A DNA stretch of 11,785 bases, taken from a virus. Its lineage: Duplodnaviria > Heunggongvirae > Uroviricota > Caudoviricetes. Position numbers and translations under genes: made by a program. Positions within the stretch are counted from its first letter, which is position 1. Each line of letters opens with the position of its first letter. This document shows, piece by piece, positions 3,618 to 10,650 of the stretch. The notes below the pieces were generated by a model that did not search any database, was not told the DNA's origin, and saw only the letters and a list, made by a program, of their open reading frames with translations. Where the stretch lies: IMG/VR virus record IMGVR_UViG_2695420482_000004; one strand, 5' to 3'.

Positions 3618-3645
3618 ACCCGCCGCTGGCGGGTTTTTTTATTTT
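3618..3645 (+). terminator. Intrinsic terminator-like hairpin plus T-tract upstream of the major tail protein gene
   Basis: ACCCGCC (3618-3624), loop GCT, GGCGGGT (3628-3634), then T7 (3634-3640) and ATTTT. It is followed by AGGAG (3647-3651) and ATG 3658. Confidence 0.5.
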
Positions 3646-3657
3646 CAGGAGACGAGT

Positions 3658-4362
3658 ATGTCCTCTAATTTTGAGCGTTCGCAACTGACGAAAATTATGA
3701 TTTCGTCTGCACCGGTAACAGCAGAAACCCTGGATTCTGCCAGCTATCTTGGCCTGAGCTGTACAATCAAAGAGGTGCAGTTTACCGCAGGACAAAAGCA
3801 GGATATTGATGTCACCACGCTGTGTTCTGTTGAGCAGGAAAATATTAACGGTCTTGGGGCTGCTTCAGAGATTTCCATGTCAGGCAACTTTTATCTGAAT
3901 GCTGCCCAGAACGCGTTGCGCAGTGCCTATGACAATGACACCACGTATGGCTTTAAAGTTATTTTTCCGTCAGGCAACGGATTTACCTTTATGGCAGAGG
4001 TGCGTCAGCATACCTGGTCTGCAGGAACCAATGGTGTTGTGGCTGCAACGTTTTCTCTGCGCCTGAAAGGTAAGCCTGTGCTGACGACAGAGCCGCTGAA
4101 AGTGAAGGTCGATTTAAAAAGCACGCTGCGGGTTGCTTCCGGAGCGAAACTTGAAATGGCGGTTGAGGCTGTGGGTGGTGTGCCGCCTTATTCTTATGCC
4201 TGGAAAAAAGGTGGTTCTCCTGTTTCCGGACAGACGGCGGCAACGTTCAGTAAGGCATCAGCAGCATCCGGTGATGCCGGTGCGTATACCTGCGAGATTT
4301 CTGATTCAGCGAGCCCGGTTAACAAAGTGACCTCCACTTCCTGCACTGTAACCGTCAGTTAA
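3658..4362 (+). CDS. Major tail (tube) protein with C-terminal Ig-like domain
   Basis: 234-aa ORF with AGGAG 6 nt upstream of the ATG. It is the gene immediately 5' of the G/GT chaperone pair, the canonical position of the major tail protein. The C-terminal ~85 residues (GGVPPYSYAWKKGG...AGAYTCEISD...TVTVS) look like an Ig-like (I-set-type) domain, as seen on many siphovirus tail tube proteins. Confidence 0.85.
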   Translation: MSSNFERSQLTKIMISSAPVTAETLDSASYLGLSCTIKEVQFTAGQKQDIDVTTLCSVEQENINGLGAASEISMSGNFYLNAAQNALRSAYDNDTTYGFKVIFPSGNGFTFMAEVRQHTWSAGTNGVVAATFSLRLKGKPVLTTEPLKVKVDLKSTLRVASGAKLEMAVEAVGGVPPYSYAWKKGGSPVSGQTAATFSKASAASGDAGAYTCEISDSASPVNKVTSTSCTVTVS

Positions 4363-4376
4363 TGAGGATGGATGTG

Positions 4377-4748
4377 ATGACTAAAAATATCCGTAATCTG
4401 GCACTGGCAACGATGTCGGGGTTTCGCCATAAAACCGTTGATGTGCCTGAATGGGAGGGAGCAACGGTTGTGTTACGGGAACCTTCTGCAGAAGCCTGGT
4501 TGCGCTGGCAGGAGATCGTTAAAGCAAAAGATGATGAGACACCGTTATCCGTTGCGGAGCGCGCCCGCCGAAATCTGGAGGCAGATGTTGAACTGTTCAT
4601 TGATGTTCTGTGTGATACCGGACTGCAACCCGTATTTTCAGAGGATGATCGTGAACAGGTGATTGCCGTGTATGGCCCGGTGCATGCGCGGCTTCTTCGG
4701 CAGTCTCTGGAACTGATCAGTGATGCCGGCGAGGTTAAAAAAAAGTAG
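4377..4748 (+). CDS. Tail assembly chaperone (lambda gpG analogue)
   Basis: ORF is open from ATG 4362, which overlaps the major tail protein stop (TAATG). I prefer ATG 4377 (or GTG 4374) because GAGGA at 4364-4368 gives an 8-nt spacer. It ends with KKK-stop on an A8G run that forms the slippery site, and sits between the major tail and tape measure genes. Confidence 0.75.
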   Translation: MTKNIRNLALATMSGFRHKTVDVPEWEGATVVLREPSAEAWLRWQEIVKAKDDETPLSVAERARRNLEADVELFIDVLCDTGLQPVFSEDDREQVIAVYGPVHARLLRQSLELISDAGEVKKK

Positions 4749-5050
4749 CGCTTCCGGGGATGCGTTTTCTGATGATGCTGGCGCTCAGGATGGGGCGCAC
4801 ATTGTCAGAGTTACGCCGGGAAATGTCCGCATCAGAAATCATGATGTGGGCAGAATTTGACAGGTTCAGCCCGCTGGGGGACGAACGGGCTGATTTCCGG
4901 GCTGCCCAGATTGTTTCAGCTGTTTACGGTGCGCAGGGGGTCAAAGTGTCACTGAATGATGCGCTTCTTCAGTGGGAGAAGGAGCAGACAGAAGGCGCTT
5001 CAGATCCATTTGCCGGACTGGAAAACGCGCTTTTAATAGTGTCTCAGTGA
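4377..5050 (+). CDS. Tail assembly chaperone G-T fusion (product of -1 frameshift at 4739-4745)
   Basis: Joining the G frame through the AAG codon (4743-4745) to the -1 frame from 4745 gives a fusion of about 224 aa, ending at TGA 5048-5050. The conserved G/GT arrangement upstream of the tape measure gene in siphoviruses supports this. Confidence 0.6.
4739..4745 (+). other. Programmed -1 ribosomal frameshift slippery heptamer A AAA AAG
   Basis: X XXY YYZ heptamer in the G zero frame, 1 nt before the G stop (TAG 4746-4748). The -1 frame is closed by TAA at 4736-4738 and opens exactly at the slip site, then runs to 5050. Confidence 0.65.
4745..5050 (+). CDS. T-frame segment of the GT fusion (lambda gpT-like extension); probably not independently initiated
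   Basis: The -1 frame is open from 4739. The ORF track reports it from ATG 4760 (96 aa), but there is no convincing RBS before 4760. It is best read as the frameshift extension of G. Confidence 0.5.
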   Translation, partial: VALPGMRFLMMLALRMGRTLSELRREMSASEIMMWAEFDRFSPLGDERADFRAAQIVSAVYGAQGVKVSLNDALLQWEKEQTEGASDPFAGLENALLIVSQ

Positions 5051-5058
5051 GTCAACAT

Positions 5059-5080
5059 AACCGCTTCGGCGGTTTTTTTT
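5059..5080 (+). terminator. Intrinsic terminator-like hairpin plus T8 tract between GT and the tape measure gene
   Basis: AACCGC (5059-5064), loop TTCG, GCGGTT (5069-5074), with a T8 run at 5073-5080, directly before the tape measure RBS. Confidence 0.5.
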
Positions 5081-5090
5081 CGTCCGGAGA

Positions 5091-8000
5091 ATGAGTGTGG
5101 CGACATTACGTGAACTGATTATTAAAATCTCGGCAAATTCCCGGTCATTCCAGTCAGAGATCTCCCGGGCTTCGCGTATGGGGCAGGATTACTACCGTAC
5201 CATGCAGAACGGAGGCCGGCAGTCCGCTGCTGCATCCCGTGAAATGCGGCGTGCACTGGCAGAAGTGACGGATCAGATAAATACAGCTAAATCTTCGGCA
5301 CTGAATATGGCGGGGGCATTTGCCGGGGCTTTTGCTACCGGTCATCTTATTTCTCTCGCCGATGAGTGGAATTCAGTAAATGCCCGTCTGAAGCAGGCCT
5401 CACAGTCCAGTGATGATTTTCAGGTATCACAACGTGAATTAATGGCGATCAGCCAGAGAACGGGGACGGCGTTTTCTGATAACGCCAGCCTTTTTGCCCG
5501 TTCTGCAGCTTCCATGCGGGAGTATGGTTACAGTTCTGAGGAGGTACTGAAAGTCACCGAGGCGATCTCCACGGGCCTGAAATTATCCGGTGCCAGTACA
5601 GCAGAAGCCAGTTCGGTGATCACGCAGTTCAGTCAGGCACTGGCGCAGGGAGTGCTGCGCGGTGAAGAGTTTAACTCGGTGAATGAGAGCGGTGATCGTG
5701 TTATTCGTGCGCTGGCTGCGGGAATGGGCGTTGCCCGTAAGGATCTGAAGGCCATGGCGGATAACGGAAAACTAACCGCCGATAAGGTTGTTCCTGCACT
5801 GATTAGTCAGCTTGGGGCGTTGCGTGATGAATATGCAGCAATGCCTGATACGGTTTCATCCTCTGCAACCAAAGTTGAAAACGCCTTTATGGCCTGGGTT
5901 GGTGGTGCGAACGAGGCAAGCGGAGTGACGAAGACGCTCTCCGGGGTGCTGAATGGTCTTGCAGGCAATATTGATACCGTGGCAACCGCTGCCGGTGCTC
6001 TGGTTGCCGTCGGGGTAGCCCGATATTTTGGCAATATGGCGTCTTCTGCTGGATCTGCAACTGCCGGATTAATTACTGCAGCCAGAAACGAAGTGGCTCT
6101 TGCTGAAGCGCAACTTCGGGGGACACAGATAGCAACCGCCAGGGCGCGTGCGGCGGTTTATCGTGCGCAACAGGCGGTTGTTGCTGCTCGCGGTACCGAA
6201 AGGCAGGCCGCAGCAGAAGCGAAGCTGACAGCTGCTCAGGCGTCACTTACCCGTAATATTGCGGCCAGAACAGCGGCACAGACAACGCTGAATACTGTCA
6301 CGTCAGTGGGGAGTCGTCTGTTAAGTGGTGCGCTGGGGTTGGTTGGTGGTGTGCCGGGACTCGTCATGCTGGGGGCGACGGCCTGGTACACGATGTATCA
6401 GAATCAGGAGCAGGCCAGAGAATCTGCACGCCAGTATGCCGCAACAATCGACGAAATTCGCCAGAAAACGTCGGCAATGTCGCTTCCTGAAGCGTCAGAT
6501 AATGAGGAAAAGACGCGGCAGGCACTTGATGAGCAAAACAGGTTAATTGACGAGCAGAAAAGTAAGATTAAATCCTTACAGGAAAAAATTGCTGGCTATC
6601 AGTATGTGCTGGCAAACCCGGGCTGGACAACCGATAACGGTTTTATGATTAACCACATGACGTCGGTAAAAACTGTCACAGAAGGGCTTGCAGAAGCAAC
6701 AAATCAACTGGCAGTTGAACAGTCCCGTCTCACACAAATGCAGGGCAAAGCGCAATCCATTCAGGATGTGCTTGCCGGGCTGGAGGAGCGACGGGTAGCG
6801 TTGATCCGTCAACAGGCCGCGGAACAAAACAAAGCGTATCAGTCCCTGTTGATCATGAATGGGCAGCATACCGAGTTTAATCGCCTTCTCGGGCTCGGTA
6901 ATGAATTACTTCAGCAGCGACAGGGGCTGGTGAATGTACCGTTACGGCTACCACAGGCAACCCTGGATGATAAACAGCAGACTGCACTGAATAACAGCGA
7001 GCGCGAACTGGCTCTGTCCCGCCTGAAGGGGGAAGCCCGTGAGCGTGCCCGCCTGGGTTATGCTGCGGATGATCTCGGCTTTGTGGGAGAGGCGTATCAG
7101 ACAGCCAGACAGAATTATATCAATAACTCACTGGATGCCTGGCGAAATAACCAGGCAAATAAACCCAAAGCGCATAAAAAGACCGAAGCGGAAAAAACAG
7201 AAGATATTTATAAACGGCTGATTAAACAGCAAAAAGAACAAATAGCACTGGCAGGGCAGAATACTGAACTGGCTAAGATGAAATATCAGGTCAGTCAGGG
7301 CGAATTATCAACCCTGTCAGAAGCGCAGAAAAAAACGCTTTTGCAGAATGCAGCACTCATCGACCAGAAAAAGATTCGTGAGCAGCTTGCTGCGTATGAA
7401 AGCAGCCTGGCGGACAGTAATGCCAGTGCCCGGGCATCTGACGACGCGCAGTTACTGGGATATGGTGAAGGCTCACGGATGCGTGAACGACTCCAGGAAA
7501 TGTGGAGTATCCGGCATGAGTTTGAGCAGAAAAATAACGAGCTTCTGAGACAGTATCAGGCCGGAGAAATTGAAGAAGCCCTGTGGAAACAGGAGAAAGA
7601 ACTGAATAAAAAATATCTGGAAGAGCGTCTCAGCGATCAGCAGGATTATTATGCAAAGGCCGATGCTTTACGTAATAACTGGAATGCAGGACTCCAGGAG
7701 GGGCTGACCAACTGGGCAGACAGTGCCACCGATTATGCTTCGCAGGCGGCAGATGCTGTCGTTTCCACTATGGACGGACTGGTATCAAATATTTCCGATG
7801 CACTGGCCGGAAATGTTGTGGACTGGAGAAACTGGGGGAGTTCAGTTCTCCGGGAAGTTTCAAAAATTCTGATGAATGCGGCCATTGTTAACGGACTGAA
7901 GTCACTCTCCGGTGCCGGAGGGTGGCTTGGTACGGTCGGCGGATGGATTTCGGGGGCGGTGGCAAACGCAAAAGGTGGTGTTTACACATCGGCAAATCTG

Positions 8001-8324
8001 AGTGCTTACAGTAACACTATTGTGGATACACCGACGTATTTTGCTTTTGCGAAAGGTGCCGGGCTGATGGGCGAGGCCGGGCCTGAAGCTATCATGCCAC
8101 TGACACGGGCAGCGGACGGCTCTCTTGGGGTCAGAGCCATTGGCAATGTGAATAGTGGCGGGGGGGTTGTTTATTCTCCCGTGTATCACATCAGCATTCA
8201 GAATCAAGGGAGCAATGGCGAGATAGATGCGCGCTCAGCCAGGGGATTGGTGGATCTGATCGACAGCAGGGTTGTGTCAATTATGCAGTCATCGCGTCGG
8301 GATGGAGGATTGTACAGTGCCTGA
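5091..8324 (+). CDS. H: Tail tape measure protein (lambda gpH family C-terminus)
   Basis: 1077-aa ORF immediately after G/GT. Long alpha-helical, Ala/Gln/Glu/Lys-rich coiled-coil composition with internal hydrophobic segments. The C-terminal region (NWRNWGSSVLREVSKILMNAAIVNGL ... RRDGGLYSA) resembles my recollection of the lambda gpH C-terminal domain. Start may be ATG 5091 (GGAG only 1 nt upstream) or GTG 5097 (7-nt spacer). Confidence 0.9.
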   Translation: MSVATLRELIIKISANSRSFQSEISRASRMGQDYYRTMQNGGRQSAAASREMRRALAEVTDQINTAKSSALNMAGAFAGAFATGHLISLADEWNSVNARLKQASQSSDDFQVSQRELMAISQRTGTAFSDNASLFARSAASMREYGYSSEEVLKVTEAISTGLKLSGASTAEASSVITQFSQALAQGVLRGEEFNSVNESGDRVIRALAAGMGVARKDLKAMADNGKLTADKVVPALISQLGALRDEYAAMPDTVSSSATKVENAFMAWVGGANEASGVTKTLSGVLNGLAGNIDTVATAAGALVAVGVARYFGNMASSAGSATAGLITAARNEVALAEAQLRGTQIATARARAAVYRAQQAVVAARGTERQAAAEAKLTAAQASLTRNIAARTAAQTTLNTVTSVGSRLLSGALGLVGGVPGLVMLGATAWYTMYQNQEQARESARQYAATIDEIRQKTSAMSLPEASDNEEKTRQALDEQNRLIDEQKSKIKSLQEKIAGYQYVLANPGWTTDNGFMINHMTSVKTVTEGLAEATNQLAVEQSRLTQMQGKAQSIQDVLAGLEERRVALIRQQAAEQNKAYQSLLIMNGQHTEFNRLLGLGNELLQQRQGLVNVPLRLPQATLDDKQQTALNNSERELALSRLKGEARERARLGYAADDLGFVGEAYQTARQNYINNSLDAWRNNQANKPKAHKKTEAEKTEDIYKRLIKQQKEQIALAGQNTELAKMKYQVSQGELSTLSEAQKKTLLQNAALIDQKKIREQLAAYESSLADSNASARASDDAQLLGYGEGSRMRERLQEMWSIRHEFEQKNNELLRQYQAGEIEEALWKQEKELNKKYLEERLSDQQDYYAKADALRNNWNAGLQEGLTNWADSATDYASQAADAVVSTMDGLVSNISDALAGNVVDWRNWGSSVLREVSKILMNAAIVNGLKSLSGAGGWLGTVGGWISGAVANAKGGVYTSANLSAYSNTIVDTPTYFAFAKGAGLMGEAGPEAIMPLTRAADGSLGVRAIGNVNSGGGVVYSPVYHISIQNQGSNGEIDARSARGLVDLIDSRVVSIMQSSRRDGGLYSA

Positions 8325-9361: not shown

Positions 9362-10105
9362 ATGACAGAGACAGAATCAGCGATTCTGGCGCACGCCCGG
9401 CGATGTGCGCCAGCGGAGTCGTGCGGCTTCGTGGTGAGAACGCCGGAAGGGGAAAGATATTTTCCCTGCGTGAATATCTCTGGTGAGCCGGAGGAGTATT
9501 TCCGGATGTCGCCGGAGGACTGGCTGAGTGCAGAAATGCAGGGAGAGATTGTGGCGCTGGTCCACAGCCACCCCGGTGGTCTGCCCTGGCTGAGTGAGGC
9601 CGACCGGCGGCTGCAGGTGCAGAGTGATTTGCCGTGGTGGCTGGTCTGCCGGGGGGCGATTCATAAATTCCGCTGTGTGCCGCATCTCACCGGGCGGCGC
9701 TTTGAGCACGGGGTGACGGACTGTTACACGCTGTTCCGGGACGCTTACCATCTGGCGGGAATTGAGATGCCGGATTTTCATCGCGGGGATGACTGGTGGC
9801 GTCACGGCCAGAATCTCTATCTGGATAATATGGAGGCAACGGGGTTGTATCAGGTGCCGTTGTCAGCGGCCCAGCCGGGCGATGTGCTGCTGTGCTGTTT
9901 TGGTTCATCGGTGCCGAATCATGCCGCCATTTACTGTGGCGACGGCGAGCTGCTGCACCATATTCCTGAACAACTGAGTAAACGAGAGAGGTACACCGAC
10001 AAATGGCAGCGACGCACACACTCCCTCTGGCGTCACCGGGCATGGCACGCATCTGCCTTTACGGGGATTTGCAACGATTTGGTCGCCGTATCGACCTTCG
10101 TGTGA
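9362..10105 (+). CDS. K: Tail assembly protein K (N-terminal MPN/JAB metallopeptidase-like plus C-terminal NlpC/P60 cysteine peptidase-like)
   Basis: 247-aa ORF. JAMM-type motif HSHPGG...SEAD at residues 68-81 with an upstream AESCG element at 18-22. A Cys (GVTDCYTLF) and His (PNHAAIY) pair in the C-terminal half is consistent with NlpC/P60. From the internal Met (ATG 9506, GAGGAG 9 nt upstream) the sequence matches the 199-aa lambda K by recall. The longer form from ATG 9362 includes the N-terminal MPN elements and is preferred. Confidence 0.85.
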   Translation: MTETESAILAHARRCAPAESCGFVVRTPEGERYFPCVNISGEPEEYFRMSPEDWLSAEMQGEIVALVHSHPGGLPWLSEADRRLQVQSDLPWWLVCRGAIHKFRCVPHLTGRRFEHGVTDCYTLFRDAYHLAGIEMPDFHRGDDWWRHGQNLYLDNMEATGLYQVPLSAAQPGDVLLCCFGSSVPNHAAIYCGDGELLHHIPEQLSKRERYTDKWQRRTHSLWRHRAWHASAFTGICNDLVAVSTFV

Positions 10106-10650
10106 AAACGGGGGCTGAAGCCATCCGGGCACTGGCCACACAGCTCCCGGTGTTTCGTCAGAAACTGAATGAGGGCTGGTATCAGGTGCGCATTGCCGGG
10201 CGTGATGCAGGCGAAAATGAATTATCTGCCCGTCTTAATGAGCCGCTGGCAAATGGTGCCGTGATCCACATCGTGCCGCGTCTGGCGGGAGCTAAAAGTG
10301 GCGGTGTGTTTCAGGTGGTGCTTGGGGCGGCGCTGATTGCGGTGGCATGGTGGAACCCTGTGGGCTGGCTGGGGGCCGCGGCTGTATCGGGCATGTATGC
10401 GGCAGGGGCCAGTATGATCCTGGGCGGAGTGGCGCAGATGCTGGCACCGAAAGCCAGGACGCCCACGGCAGCCAGTACAGATAACGGCAAACAGAACACC
10501 TATTTCTCCTCACTGGATAACATGGTTGCCCAGGGCAATGTTCTGCCTGTTCTGTACGGTGAAATGCGCGTGGGGTCACGTGTGGTTTCTCAGGAGATCA
10601 GCACGGCAGACGAAGGGGATGGTGGTCAGGTTGTGGTGATTGGTCGCTGA
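10003..10650 (+). CDS. I: Tail assembly protein I (N-terminal ubiquitin-like domain, hydrophobic C-terminal region)
   Basis: 215-aa ORF. The N-terminus MAATHTLPLASPGMARICLYGDLQRFGRRIDLRVKTGAEAIRALATQLP matches lambda gpI as I recall it. Overlaps the 3' end of K by 103 nt in a different frame, as in lambda. Gly-Gly at residues 100-101 followed by a hydrophobic stretch. Confidence 0.9.
   Translation: MAATHTLPLASPGMARICLYGDLQRFGRRIDLRVKTGAEAIRALATQLPVFRQKLNEGWYQVRIAGRDAGENELSARLNEPLANGAVIHIVPRLAGAKSGGVFQVVLGAALIAVAWWNPVGWLGAAAVSGMYAAGASMILGGVAQMLAPKARTPTAASTDNGKQNTYFSSLDNMVAQGNVLPVLYGEMRVGSRVVSQEISTADEGDGGQVVVIGR

What the first reader, a model, noticed from the sequence alone, without database searches (positions are those of the whole stretch)
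4731..5050. Canonical -1 programmed ribosomal frameshift producing G and GT tail chaperones
The heptamer A AAA AAG (4739-4745) sits 1 nt before the G stop. The -1 frame is closed right up to the site (TAA 4736-4738) and then stays open for 101 codons, giving a G product of about 123 aa and a GT fusion of about 224 aa. This matches the conserved tail-chaperone frameshift of lambda-like phages, but uses the dnaX-type A AAA AAG site rather than lambda's G GGA AAG. I did not see an obvious strong downstream stimulatory structure.
Basis: partly seen in the sequence, partly recalled or inferred. Interest (0 to 1): 0.5.

Follow-up and report, generated by a model that had tools for sequence, protein, structure and literature searches.

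The report
Phage tail chaperone G/GT frameshift site
This is the well-known programmed -1 frameshift that lets an HK97-like E. coli prophage make a short tail-assembly chaperone (G) and a rarer extended form (GT) from one gene pair; it is real but ordinary, and a close homologue with the same signal has already been measured at about 7% shifting.

Summary
The G gene (4377-4748) ends GTT AAA AAA AAG TAG. The heptamer A_AAA_AAG (4739-4745) is flanked by a -1-frame TAA (4736-4738) and by the G stop (4746-4748), which follows directly rather than 1 nt later. The -1 frame then runs 101 codons to TGA 5048-5050, giving G of 123 aa and GT of 224 aa.

G belongs to Pfam Phage_TAC_1, the HK97 gp13 family. 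The -1 segment belongs to Phage_tail_T, the same family as lambda T. The pair lies between the major tail gene and the tape-measure gene.

- T lies in the -1 frame in 71 of 73 related genome loci.
- Of 79 usable homologous loci, 50 carry A_AAA_AAG and 6 carry G_GGA_AAG.
- 78 of 79 keep an in-frame AAG preceded by A.
- In 48 of those 78, the stop follows the AAG directly.

HK97 gp13/gp14 is annotated as a -1 frameshift. An O157-prophage homologue with the same A_AAA_AAG_TAG layout gave 7% shifting in an E. coli reporter (Antonov 2013). I found no downstream RNA structure and no conserved separate start for T.

The dnaX-type heptamer is the majority state of this family, not a departure from it. 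Verdict: interpretation supported, already known, low interest. The A8 run leaves a minor contribution from RNA-polymerase slippage untested.

The parts
4377..4748 (+). Gene G: tail assembly chaperone, 123 aa, stop TAG at 4746-4748. The start is ATG 4377, preceded by an SD-like GAGGA at 4365-4369.
   Evidence: Pfam PF06222 Phage_TAC_1, E 2.4e-58; PHROG 344 tail assembly chaperone. The same start is annotated in GenBank and RefSeq records. SD energy is -8.5 kcal/mol for ATG 4377 against +0.9 for ATG 4362.
4739..4745 (+). Slippery heptamer A_AAA_AAG, the last two codons of G plus the preceding A. It lies within an A8 run at 4737-4744.
   Evidence: Read directly from the sequence. The same heptamer occurs at the homologous position in 50 of 79 loci, and an in-frame AAG preceded by A occurs in 78 of 79. 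An identical heptamer-plus-TAG layout in a homologue gave 7% frameshifting.
4736..4738 (+). TAA in the -1 frame, directly 5' of the heptamer. Together with the G stop it confines any productive -1 shift to this one heptamer (7-nt overlap).
   Evidence: The same minimal 7-nt overlap is seen in several homologues (L008, L023, L027, L053, L084-L086, L088).
4745..5050 (+). T segment: 101 codons in the -1 frame read after the slip, plus the stop TGA at 5048-5050. It is expressed only as the C-terminal part of the 224-aa GT fusion (4377-4745 joined to 4745-5050).
   Evidence: Pfam PF06223 Phage_tail_T, E 2.5e-19. PHROG 14766 is a 224-position profile whose first half matches G and second half matches T. 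T homologues lie in the -1 frame in 71 of 73 genome loci.
4760..4762 (+). ATG used by GenBank/RefSeq annotation as the start of a separate 96-aa 'T' CDS. It is probably not a real start.
   Evidence: Annotated as a separate CDS. There is no SD (-1.0 kcal/mol, against -6 to -10 for most of the gene starts checked in the window). The aligned codon is ATG in only 22 of 78 homologues and Thr in 44.
4731..4735 (+). SD-like GAGGT, ending 3 nt upstream of the heptamer. It is not expected to stimulate a -1 shift at this spacing.
   Evidence: Duplex energy with the anti-SD is about -7 kcal/mol. The stimulatory spacing for -1 shifts is 9-14 nt, and 3 nt for +1 shifts (PMC5009743). Strong SD-like motifs are not enriched in homologues.
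3658..4362 (+). Context: major tail protein with a C-terminal Ig-like domain, immediately upstream of G.
   Evidence: PHROG 158 major tail protein, E 3.4e-109; Pfam Ig_2 and Phage_TTP_11.
5097..8324 (+). Context: tape-measure protein gene, immediately downstream of T, with a GTG start as in RefSeq.
   Evidence: Pfam PF06120, PF20155 and PF09718. The RefSeq start maps to 5097. SD energy is -6.6 kcal/mol.
5059..5082 (+). Terminator-like hairpin (AACCGC-TTCG-GCGGTT) followed by a T8 run, between T and the tape-measure gene.
   Evidence: HK97 and HK446 records annotate rho-independent terminators in the corresponding intergenic regions.

Best explanation
Most ribosomes translating G from ATG 4377 terminate at TAG 4746 and release the 123-aa chaperone G. 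A few per cent slip back one nucleotide on A_AAA_AAG (4739-4745). E. coli has a single tRNA-Lys, which pairs better with AAA than with AAG. It re-pairs from AAA/AAG to AAA/AAA, either as a tandem P/A-site slip or as a P-site slip while the slow-to-decode TAG occupies the A site. Decoding then resumes at GTA (4745-4747) and continues for 101 codons to TGA 5048. The product is the 224-aa GT fusion, ...GEVKKK-VALPGMRF... By analogy with lambda, many G molecules and a few GT molecules coat the tape-measure protein. The T domain recruits the major tail protein, and neither G nor GT ends up in the virion. Shown here: the sequence anatomy, the domain identities and the conservation of the site. Taken from the literature: the about 7% efficiency, measured on a homologue. 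Inferred by homology: the assembly role and the fixed G:GT ratio. No dedicated RNA stimulator is needed or present; the immediately adjacent stop codon may contribute.
For: Anatomy. Domains: G is PF06222 and the -1 segment is PF06223, which lambda T also matches. A 224-position PHROG profile spans both halves. Synteny is major tail gene, G, T, tape-measure gene. HK97 gp14 is annotated 'translated due to a -1 frameshift', and HK446 and Bcep176 carry joined CDS. Comparative data: T lies in the -1 frame in 71 of 73 genome loci. Of 79 loci, 50 have A_AAA_AAG, 6 have G_GGA_AAG, and 78 have an in-frame AAG preceded by A. The slip codon is AAG in 78 of 79, against 32% AAG among the other Lys codons of the same genes. 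The stop follows directly in 48 of 78. The AAAG core is invariant or nearly so while flanking third positions vary. [quoted passage not shown] A_AAA_AAG is the most shift-prone heptamer in E. coli, which has only one tRNA-Lys (PMC5009743). No separate start for T. In-frame G-T fusions are very rare: 3 of 104 protein clusters, all singletons from short contigs, and at least P0001 shows a second, later frame error.
Against: Nothing was measured for this exact sequence. Its flanks differ from the tested homologue (GTT AAA before the core instead of GCC AGA, and CGC TTC after the stop). An SD-like GAGGT lies 3 nt upstream, a spacing associated with +1 rather than -1 stimulation, so it could lower efficiency. 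The A8 run means part of the GT product could come from RNA-polymerase slippage. The published reporter assay does not formally separate transcriptional from translational slippage.
Confidence: 0.9

Rival explanations
1. RNA-polymerase slippage is the main route. RNAP adds one extra A while transcribing the A8 run (4737-4744), so a subset of mRNAs carry A9. Standard translation of those mRNAs yields the identical GT protein, KKK then VALPG.
For: The run is 8 A long. A runs with n>7 are implicated in programmed transcriptional realignment, and reporter yield rose with run length in another gene family: 7 As gave 10%, 9 As 40%, 11 As 63% (PMC3711429). The product is indistinguishable at the protein level.
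Against: Efficient RNAP slippage in bacteria is documented for runs of 9 A or T (PMC5009743). In this family the conserved element is the heptamer, or just A_AAG, and not a long run. Run lengths are 3-4 in 28 loci, 6 in 5, 7 in 35, 8 in 9 and 9 in 1. The tested homologue has only A6 and still gives 7%. AAG, never AAA, is kept as the last codon, which matters for tRNA-Lys slippage but would shorten an RNAP slippage run.
Confidence: 0.06
2. T is made as a separate 96-aa protein, as annotated in RefSeq and GenBank. It would arise by independent initiation or by termination-reinitiation at ATG 4760, 11 nt after the G stop, and no fusion would be needed.
For: ATG 4760 is in the T frame, and annotators call it as a separate CDS. 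It lies close to the G stop, so reinitiation is physically possible. A weak SD-like GGGGA precedes the internal ATGs at 4772 and 4775 (-5.7 kcal/mol).
Against: ATG 4760 has no SD (-1.0 kcal/mol). The aligned codon is a start codon in only 22 of 78 homologues and Thr in 44. The conserved Met two residues before LALR has weak SD energy family-wide (mean -1.2). T-frame conservation begins directly after the heptamer (V-x-x-P-G/E...). The heptamer and frame relation are conserved, which independent initiation does not require. In lambda, T is made only as GT (PMC5009743).
Confidence: 0.03
3. The arrangement is a chance overlap or a decayed gene: a frameshift mutation in an ancestral single G-T gene of a defective prophage, with no programmed event.
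For: The locus is a prophage, and homopolymer runs are indel hot spots. A7 variants occur in 3 of 89 near-identical IMG/VR contigs, and a protein cluster shows the +1-frame read-through. The heptamer count in the window is not itself above chance.
Against: The same two-frame arrangement is present in 71 of 73 loci across Enterobacterales and in Burkholderia and Halomonas phages at 28-70% identity, including viable phages such as HK97, HK446, phi1026b and Bcep176. In-frame fusions are almost absent. The surrounding head and tail genes in the window are intact.
Confidence: 0.01

Closest known systems
Phage HK97 gp13/gp14 (tail assembly chaperone and its -1 frameshift extension)
   Same: Same Pfam families: PF06222 for G, with 64% identity, and a T segment of the same family. 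Both GT products are 224 aa. Both lie between the major tail gene and the tape-measure gene. T is in the -1 frame in both, and the record states 'translated due to a -1 frameshift'.
   Different: In HK97 the zero frame reads CGG GAA AAG, followed by five further sense codons (TCT CAA CCC CCG GCG) before the stop. The site is therefore G_GAA_AAG, not a perfect X_XXY_YYZ heptamer, and the overlap is 49 nt. The window has the perfect A_AAA_AAG, with the stop directly after it and a 7-nt overlap. HK97 also carries a moron (gp15) between T and the tape-measure gene; the window does not.
E. coli O157 / Stx-phage 'Phage_TAC' frameshift cluster (Antonov et al. 2013, NAR; for example Stx2 phage 1717)
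   Same: G is 67-68% identical. The layout is identical: A_AAA_AAG directly followed by TAG, with T in the -1 frame. It was measured at 7% in an E. coli GST-MBP reporter.
   Different: The preceding codon is AGA (A6 run) instead of AAA (A8 run). The flanks differ. At the position of ATG 4760 the homologue has ATT (Ile).
Phage lambda G / GT
   Same: Same function class, same gene position and a -1 shift near the end of G. The T part is in the same Pfam family, PF06223. The shift is low-level and sets the G:GT ratio at about 30:1 (PMC5009743).
   Different: Lambda uses G_GGA_AAG, located several codons before the G stop. Lambda G is in a different family, PF06894, and shows no detectable pairwise similarity.
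E. coli dnaX tau/gamma frameshift
   Same: Same heptamer, A_AAA_AAG, and the same tRNA-Lys slippage chemistry.
   Different: dnaX reaches about 50% with an SD stimulator upstream (9-14 nt is the stimulatory spacing for -1 shifts) and a downstream stem-loop, and its shifted frame terminates almost at once. Here there is no conserved downstream structure, no Rfam hit and only an SD-like motif at the wrong spacing. The shifted frame adds a 101-residue domain.

Membership tests
Conserved G/GT tail-assembly-chaperone frameshift of long-tailed phages (Xu, Hendrix & Duda 2004 class) | Two ORFs lie between the major tail protein gene and the tape-measure gene. | tested here: met
   Major tail gene 3658-4362, G 4377-4748, T to 5050, tape-measure gene 5097-8324.
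Conserved G/GT tail-assembly-chaperone frameshift of long-tailed phages (Xu, Hendrix & Duda 2004 class) | The second ORF overlaps the 3' end of the first in the -1 frame and lacks its own credible start. | tested here: met
   7-nt overlap with the -1 frame open over 4739-5047. ATG 4760 has no SD and is not conserved.
Conserved G/GT tail-assembly-chaperone frameshift of long-tailed phages (Xu, Hendrix & Duda 2004 class) | A slippery sequence in correct register lies inside the overlap and is conserved among relatives. | tested here: met
   A_AAA_AAG at 4739-4745. Of 79 loci, 50 carry the same heptamer, 6 carry G_GGA_AAG and 78 carry x_xxA_AAG.
Conserved G/GT tail-assembly-chaperone frameshift of long-tailed phages (Xu, Hendrix & Duda 2004 class) | A fusion protein is actually made at a low percentage and is required for tail assembly. 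| not testable with these tools
   Evidence is by proxy only: 7% in a reporter for a 67-68% identical homologue with the same site, and lambda genetics.
HK97 gp13/gp14 family (Pfam PF06222 + PF06223) | G matches Phage_TAC_1 above the gathering score. | tested here: met
   195.9 bits against a cutoff of 25, E 2.4e-58. HK97 gp13 scores 203 bits.
HK97 gp13/gp14 family (Pfam PF06222 + PF06223) | The -1 segment matches Phage_tail_T above the gathering score. | tested here: met
   69.9 bits against a cutoff of 25.9, E 2.5e-19. Lambda T scores 54.1 bits.
Lambda G family (Pfam PF06894 Phage_TAC_2) | G matches Phage_TAC_2 or shows pairwise similarity to lambda G. | tested here: not met
   The only Pfam hit for G is PF06222. 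BLASTP against lambda G gives E 4.9. The locus works like lambda G but is not a member of that sequence family.
dnaX-type frameshift cassette | A_AAA_AAG heptamer. | tested here: met
dnaX-type frameshift cassette | An SD-like stimulator 9-14 nt upstream and a stem-loop a few nt downstream. | tested here: not met
   GAGGT ends 3 nt upstream; the spacing rule is. Downstream folds are no better than shuffles, with z from +1.13 to -1.26. RNAalifold on 57 homologues predicts 0 pairs. There is no Rfam match at E<=1.

The most novel reading that the evidence does not exclude
In this lineage the shift site has grown from the family's usual A6-A7 run to an A8 run, with an SD-like GAGGU 3 nt upstream. 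GT output might therefore be set by a mixture of ribosomal -1 slippage, stop-codon-paused P-site slippage and some RNA-polymerase slippage, tuned down by the closely spaced SD. This would be a composite signal differing quantitatively from the tested homologues. More broadly, about a quarter of the family (22 of 79 loci, for example Klebsiella A_GCA_AAG_TAA and HK97 G_GAA_AAG) retains only A_AAG. That suggests single-tRNA-Lys slippage next to a stop codon is the ancestral core of the G/GT signal.
Probability: 0.12. Interest if true: 0.25.

Novelty: already known. Interest (0 to 1): 0.08.

Why it matters
The biological significance is small, because this is a textbook recoding event in a common E. 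coli prophage. The practical value lies in annotation. In every record with the window's own variant that I opened, RefSeq or GenBank, G and T are listed as two independent CDS, with T starting at a non-conserved ATG that lacks an SD. The real product is most likely a 224-aa GT fusion. This sequence matches 901 of 5,426 complete E. coli genomes, 898 of them over at least 80% of the query. The comparative table (50 A_AAA_AAG, 6 G_GGA_AAG and 22 A_AAG-only sites among 79 loci) is a compact illustration of how the shift signal drifts while the tRNA-Lys A_AAG core is kept.

Tried and rejected
1. Downstream stimulatory structure. I folded 42-131 nt around and after the site. Energies were no better than shuffles (z +1.13 to -1.26). 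A local hairpin, GCGCUC/GGGCGC at about 4781-4798, starts about 35 nt downstream, encodes the conserved LALRMGR motif, and is lost in the Serratia and Burkholderia homologues that keep A_AAA_AAG. RNAalifold on 57 homologues gave 0 pairs, and Rfam gave no hit at E<=1.

2. Upstream SD stimulator. Weak purine-rich 8-mers are enriched 3-8 nt upstream: mean -3.6 against -1.06 kcal/mol in the background, and 40% against 12% at or below -4. Strong SD-like motifs are not enriched, and the spacing is outside the 9-14 nt window. The conserved acidic residues (E/D-E/D-A) probably explain the enrichment.

3. Independent start for T. Rejected.

4. Direct similarity to lambda G and T by BLASTP. None was found; only the Pfam profile links the T parts.

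5. NCBIfam gave no hit for G, T or GT.

6. The search for related loci with the 9-sequence alignment failed because no stretch was conserved enough. A 6-sequence enteric alignment worked.

7. Search for natural in-frame GT fusions. Only three singleton predicted proteins turned up, all from short contigs; two carry frame or indel changes at the junction, and P0001 also shows a second, later frame error.

8. A-run length variation in near-identical IMG/VR contigs. A8 occurred in 86 and A7 in 3; no A9 was seen.

Full report
**Observation.** The sequence is as described. The ORF ending at 4748 reads ...GAG GTT AAA AAA AAG TAG, so A_AAA_AAG occupies 4739-4745 in X_XXY_YYZ register. In the -1 frame, TAA lies at 4736-4738, and the frame is then open to TGA 5048-5050. 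That is 103 codons from 4739, or 101 from the post-slip codon GTA at 4745-4747. From ATG 4377, G is 123 aa and the fusion is 224 aa, with the junction ...GEVKKKVALPGMRF.... ATG 4377 has an SD-like GAGGA (-8.5 kcal/mol with the anti-SD) and is the start used in the database records I opened. The in-frame ATG 4362 has none. The heptamer by itself is not improbable: the window has 3 copies on both strands against 1.81 expected. The copy at 4204-4210, inside the major tail gene, is in the wrong register (AAA_AAA_G). The significance comes from position and conservation.

**What the genes are.** The window is the head-tail module of an HK97-like siphovirus prophage. In order it carries:
- an S78 prohead protease and an HK97-fold capsid protein;
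- a head completion protein, a gp10-like protein and a gp17-like protein;
- an Ig-domain major tail protein (3658-4362);
- the G/T pair;
- a 1077-aa tape-measure protein;
- lambda M/L/K/I-like minor tail proteins.

G matches Pfam PF06222 Phage_TAC_1 (E 2.4e-58). The -1 segment matches PF06223 Phage_tail_T (E 2.5e-19). Lambda T matches the same PF06223, whereas lambda G belongs to PF06894, and BLASTP finds no pairwise similarity to lambda G or T. HK97 gp13 is PF06222 and 64% identical to this G. PHROG 14766 is a 224-position profile whose first half matches G and second half matches T, so fused annotations already exist. The 801-bp region has 898 matches covering at least 80% of the query among 5,426 complete E. 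coli genomes, 874 of the 901 matching genomes at 95-100% identity (the 15 listed are 100% identical), all chromosomal. It is 96.9-99.9% identical in 11 deposited Escherichia phage records. In those records G and T are annotated as separate CDS, with T starting at ATG 4760.

**Comparative evidence.** tblastn with G found 199 phage records. HK97's record carries a joined CDS 'translated due to a -1 frameshift', and HK446 and Burkholderia phage Bcep176 are annotated the same way ('lambda T equivalent'). I fetched 13 phage loci and 73 loci from one-genome-per-species bacterial contigs, mostly Enterobacterales, at 40-70% identity in G. T homologues (phmmer E<1e-3) lie in the -1 frame in 71 of the 73 genome loci. 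The other two have no T hit in the -1 frame: one (L042) has no shift site near the point where its G frame ends, and the other (L028) shows a frame disruption inside G. L071, counted among the 71, is also disrupted inside G. All three were left out of the shift-site tally.

Among the 79 usable loci, the site inside the overlap is distributed as follows:

| Site | Loci |
|---|---|
| A_AAA_AAG | 50 |
| G_GGA_AAG | 6 |
| Non-canonical, ending in an in-frame AAG preceded by A | 22 |
| A_AAA_AAC within an A9 run (Halomonas phage) | 1 |

The non-canonical group includes G_GAA_AAG in the HK97 type, A_GCA_AAG and G_GCA_AAG in the Klebsiella and Pantoea types, A_GAA_AAG and G_GTA_AAG.

- The slip codon is AAG in 78 of 79 loci, against 32% AAG (152 of 477) among the other Lys codons of the same G genes.
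- The stop codon follows the AAG directly in 48 of 78.
- In a 57-sequence alignment the G of AAG is invariant and the three preceding A are conserved in at least 90% of sequences, while the third position of the preceding GCn codon varies freely.
- A-run lengths are 3-4 in 28 loci, 6 in 5, 7 in 35, 8 in 9 (including the window) and 9 in 1.
- Within the window's own lineage, 86 of 89 IMG/VR contigs have A8 and 3 have A7.

**No separate start for T.** ATG 4760 has essentially no SD complementarity (-1.0 kcal/mol, against -6 to -10 for most of the gene starts checked in the window). The aligned codon is ATG in 22 of 78 homologues, Thr in 44, and Val, Leu, Ile or Asn in the rest. The conserved Met two residues before the LALR motif has weak SD energy family-wide (mean -1.2 kcal/mol). 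Conservation in the T frame begins immediately after the heptamer. Predicted single-ORF G-T fusions are nearly absent: 3 of 104 protein clusters, all singletons from short contigs. Two of them carry frame or indel changes at the junction, and P0001 also shows a second, later frame error.

**No stimulatory RNA.** Folds of 42-131 nt around and after the site are no more stable than dinucleotide shuffles (z +1.13 to -1.26). RNAalifold on 57 homologues predicts no pairs at all, and Rfam has no match at E<=1. An SD-like GAGGT (about -7 kcal/mol) ends 3 nt upstream of the heptamer. The documented stimulatory spacing is 9-14 nt for -1 shifts and 3 nt for +1 shifts (PMC5009743), so this motif is not expected to help. 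Strong SD-like motifs are not enriched at that position in homologues; only weak purine-rich ones are, and these are explicable by the conserved E/D-E/D-A residues.

**Published evidence.**
- Antonov et al. 2013 (PMC3711429) found a 'Phage_TAC' cluster of 41 frameshifted genes similar to an HK97 protein and tested two inserts in an E. coli GST-MBP reporter.
  - ...GCG_GGA_AAG_CCG_TAA... gave 6% +/-0.61.
  - The first insert matches the junction sequence of Stx2 phage 1717 (L006), which is 67-68% identical in G and has the same heptamer-plus-TAG layout as the window. The second is the HK542 type.
- The Atkins et al. 2016 review (PMC5009743) covers four relevant points.
  - It summarises lambda G/GT: a 30:1 ratio, the T domain binding the major tail protein, and neither product present in virions.
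  - A_AAA_AAG is far more shift-prone in E. coli than other A/U heptamers, owing to the single tRNA-Lys.
  - A_AAG alone supports low-level -1 shifting.
  - Efficient bacterial RNAP slippage is documented for runs of 9 A or T.

**Mechanism and rivals.** The best explanation, at about 0.9, is low-level -1 ribosomal frameshifting on A_AAA_AAG. It yields G (123 aa, the majority product) and GT (224 aa, a few per cent). The adjacent TAG may add a P-site slippage route.

- RNA-polymerase slippage on the A8 run would give the same protein and cannot be excluded as a minor contributor. As the main route it is unlikely (about 0.06). The family conserves the heptamer or A_AAG rather than run length, the A6 homologue already gives 7%, and AAG rather than AAA is always kept.
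- Independent translation of T (about 0.03) and a decayed gene or chance overlap (about 0.01) are contradicted by the comparative data.

**Comparison and novelty.** The locus is a member of the HK97 gp13/gp14 family and of the general G/GT frameshift class. It works like lambda G/GT, but its G part is not a member of the lambda G sequence family. It shares only the heptamer with dnaX and lacks both dnaX stimulators. Novelty: already known. Interest is low (0.08). The useful by-product is an annotation correction: GT should be annotated as a joined CDS, 4377..4745 plus 4745..5050.

Noticed in passing
window 4760-5050; L001, L002, L003: The GenBank and RefSeq (PGAP) records I opened for the window's own variant annotate T as a free-standing 96-aa CDS starting at ATG 4760 ('phage tail assembly protein T' or 'DUF4035'). 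None annotates it as a frameshifted GT fusion. The sequence matches 901 of 5,426 complete E. coli genomes, so this is a widespread annotation gap.
   Followed up: partly
L008, L032, L033, L036, L047, L051, L052, L055, L056, L076, L078, L083 (junctions); L015-L018, L021, L029: About a quarter of homologues lack a canonical X_XXY_YYZ heptamer and keep only an in-frame AAG preceded by A. Examples are Klebsiella GCT AAA GCA AAG TAA, with just a 7-nt overlap, and HK97 CGG GAA AAG. This implies single-tRNA-Lys slippage, often next to the stop codon, as the minimal conserved signal.
   Followed up: partly
window 5059-5082 and 3618-3644: Terminator-like hairpins with T runs lie between T and the tape-measure gene and just upstream of the major tail gene. 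HK97 and HK446 annotate rho-independent terminators at the corresponding places. HK97 has the moron gp15 between T and the tape-measure gene, but this window has no gene there.
   Followed up: partly
L094, L129, L178; proteins P0001, P0004: Rare A7 or A6 variants of the A8 run occur: 3 of 89 IMG/VR contigs, and a protein cluster of 54 members reading ...GEVKKSSASGDAF... in the +1 frame. These are either homopolymer sequencing errors or real indels that would abolish normal G termination.
   Followed up: partly
window 4204-4210: A second AAAAAAG lies inside the major tail protein gene but in AAA_AAA_G register (W-K-K-G), so it is not a canonical -1 site. Nothing suggests it is used.
   Followed up: partly
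window 3658-4362 (residues about 145-234): The major tail protein carries an in-frame C-terminal Ig-like domain (Pfam Ig_2/Ig_3/I-set; PHROG Hoc-like). PGAP therefore names it only 'immunoglobulin domain-containing protein'.
   Followed up: no
window 4731-4735 and the homologous positions in 70 loci: Weak SD-like, purine-rich motifs are enriched 3-8 nt upstream of the shift site across the family (40% at or below -4 kcal/mol, against 12% in the background). The window has a fairly strong GAGGT. The conserved acidic residues probably explain this, and the spacing is wrong for -1 stimulation.
   Followed up: yes
window 4767-4810: A local hairpin (core GCGCUC/GGGCGC at about 4781-4798) starts 20-35 nt after the site and recurs in the HK97 and Stx-phage homologues. 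It coincides with the conserved LALRMGR coding motif and is not kept in the Serratia or Burkholderia homologues. No covariation support was found.
   Followed up: yes
protein P0002 (JGI metagenome contig, 222 aa): This is an apparently natural in-frame G-T fusion of the Stx-phage type. It lacks the four junction residues (…ARKK|EIRFLM…), which implies a short deletion that removes the need for a frameshift. It is a single contig and I did not examine its DNA.
   Followed up: no
window 9362-10105 and 10003-10650: The K-like and I-like minor tail ORFs overlap by about 100 nt as listed. The true start of I is probably a later codon. I did not examine this.
   Followed up: no
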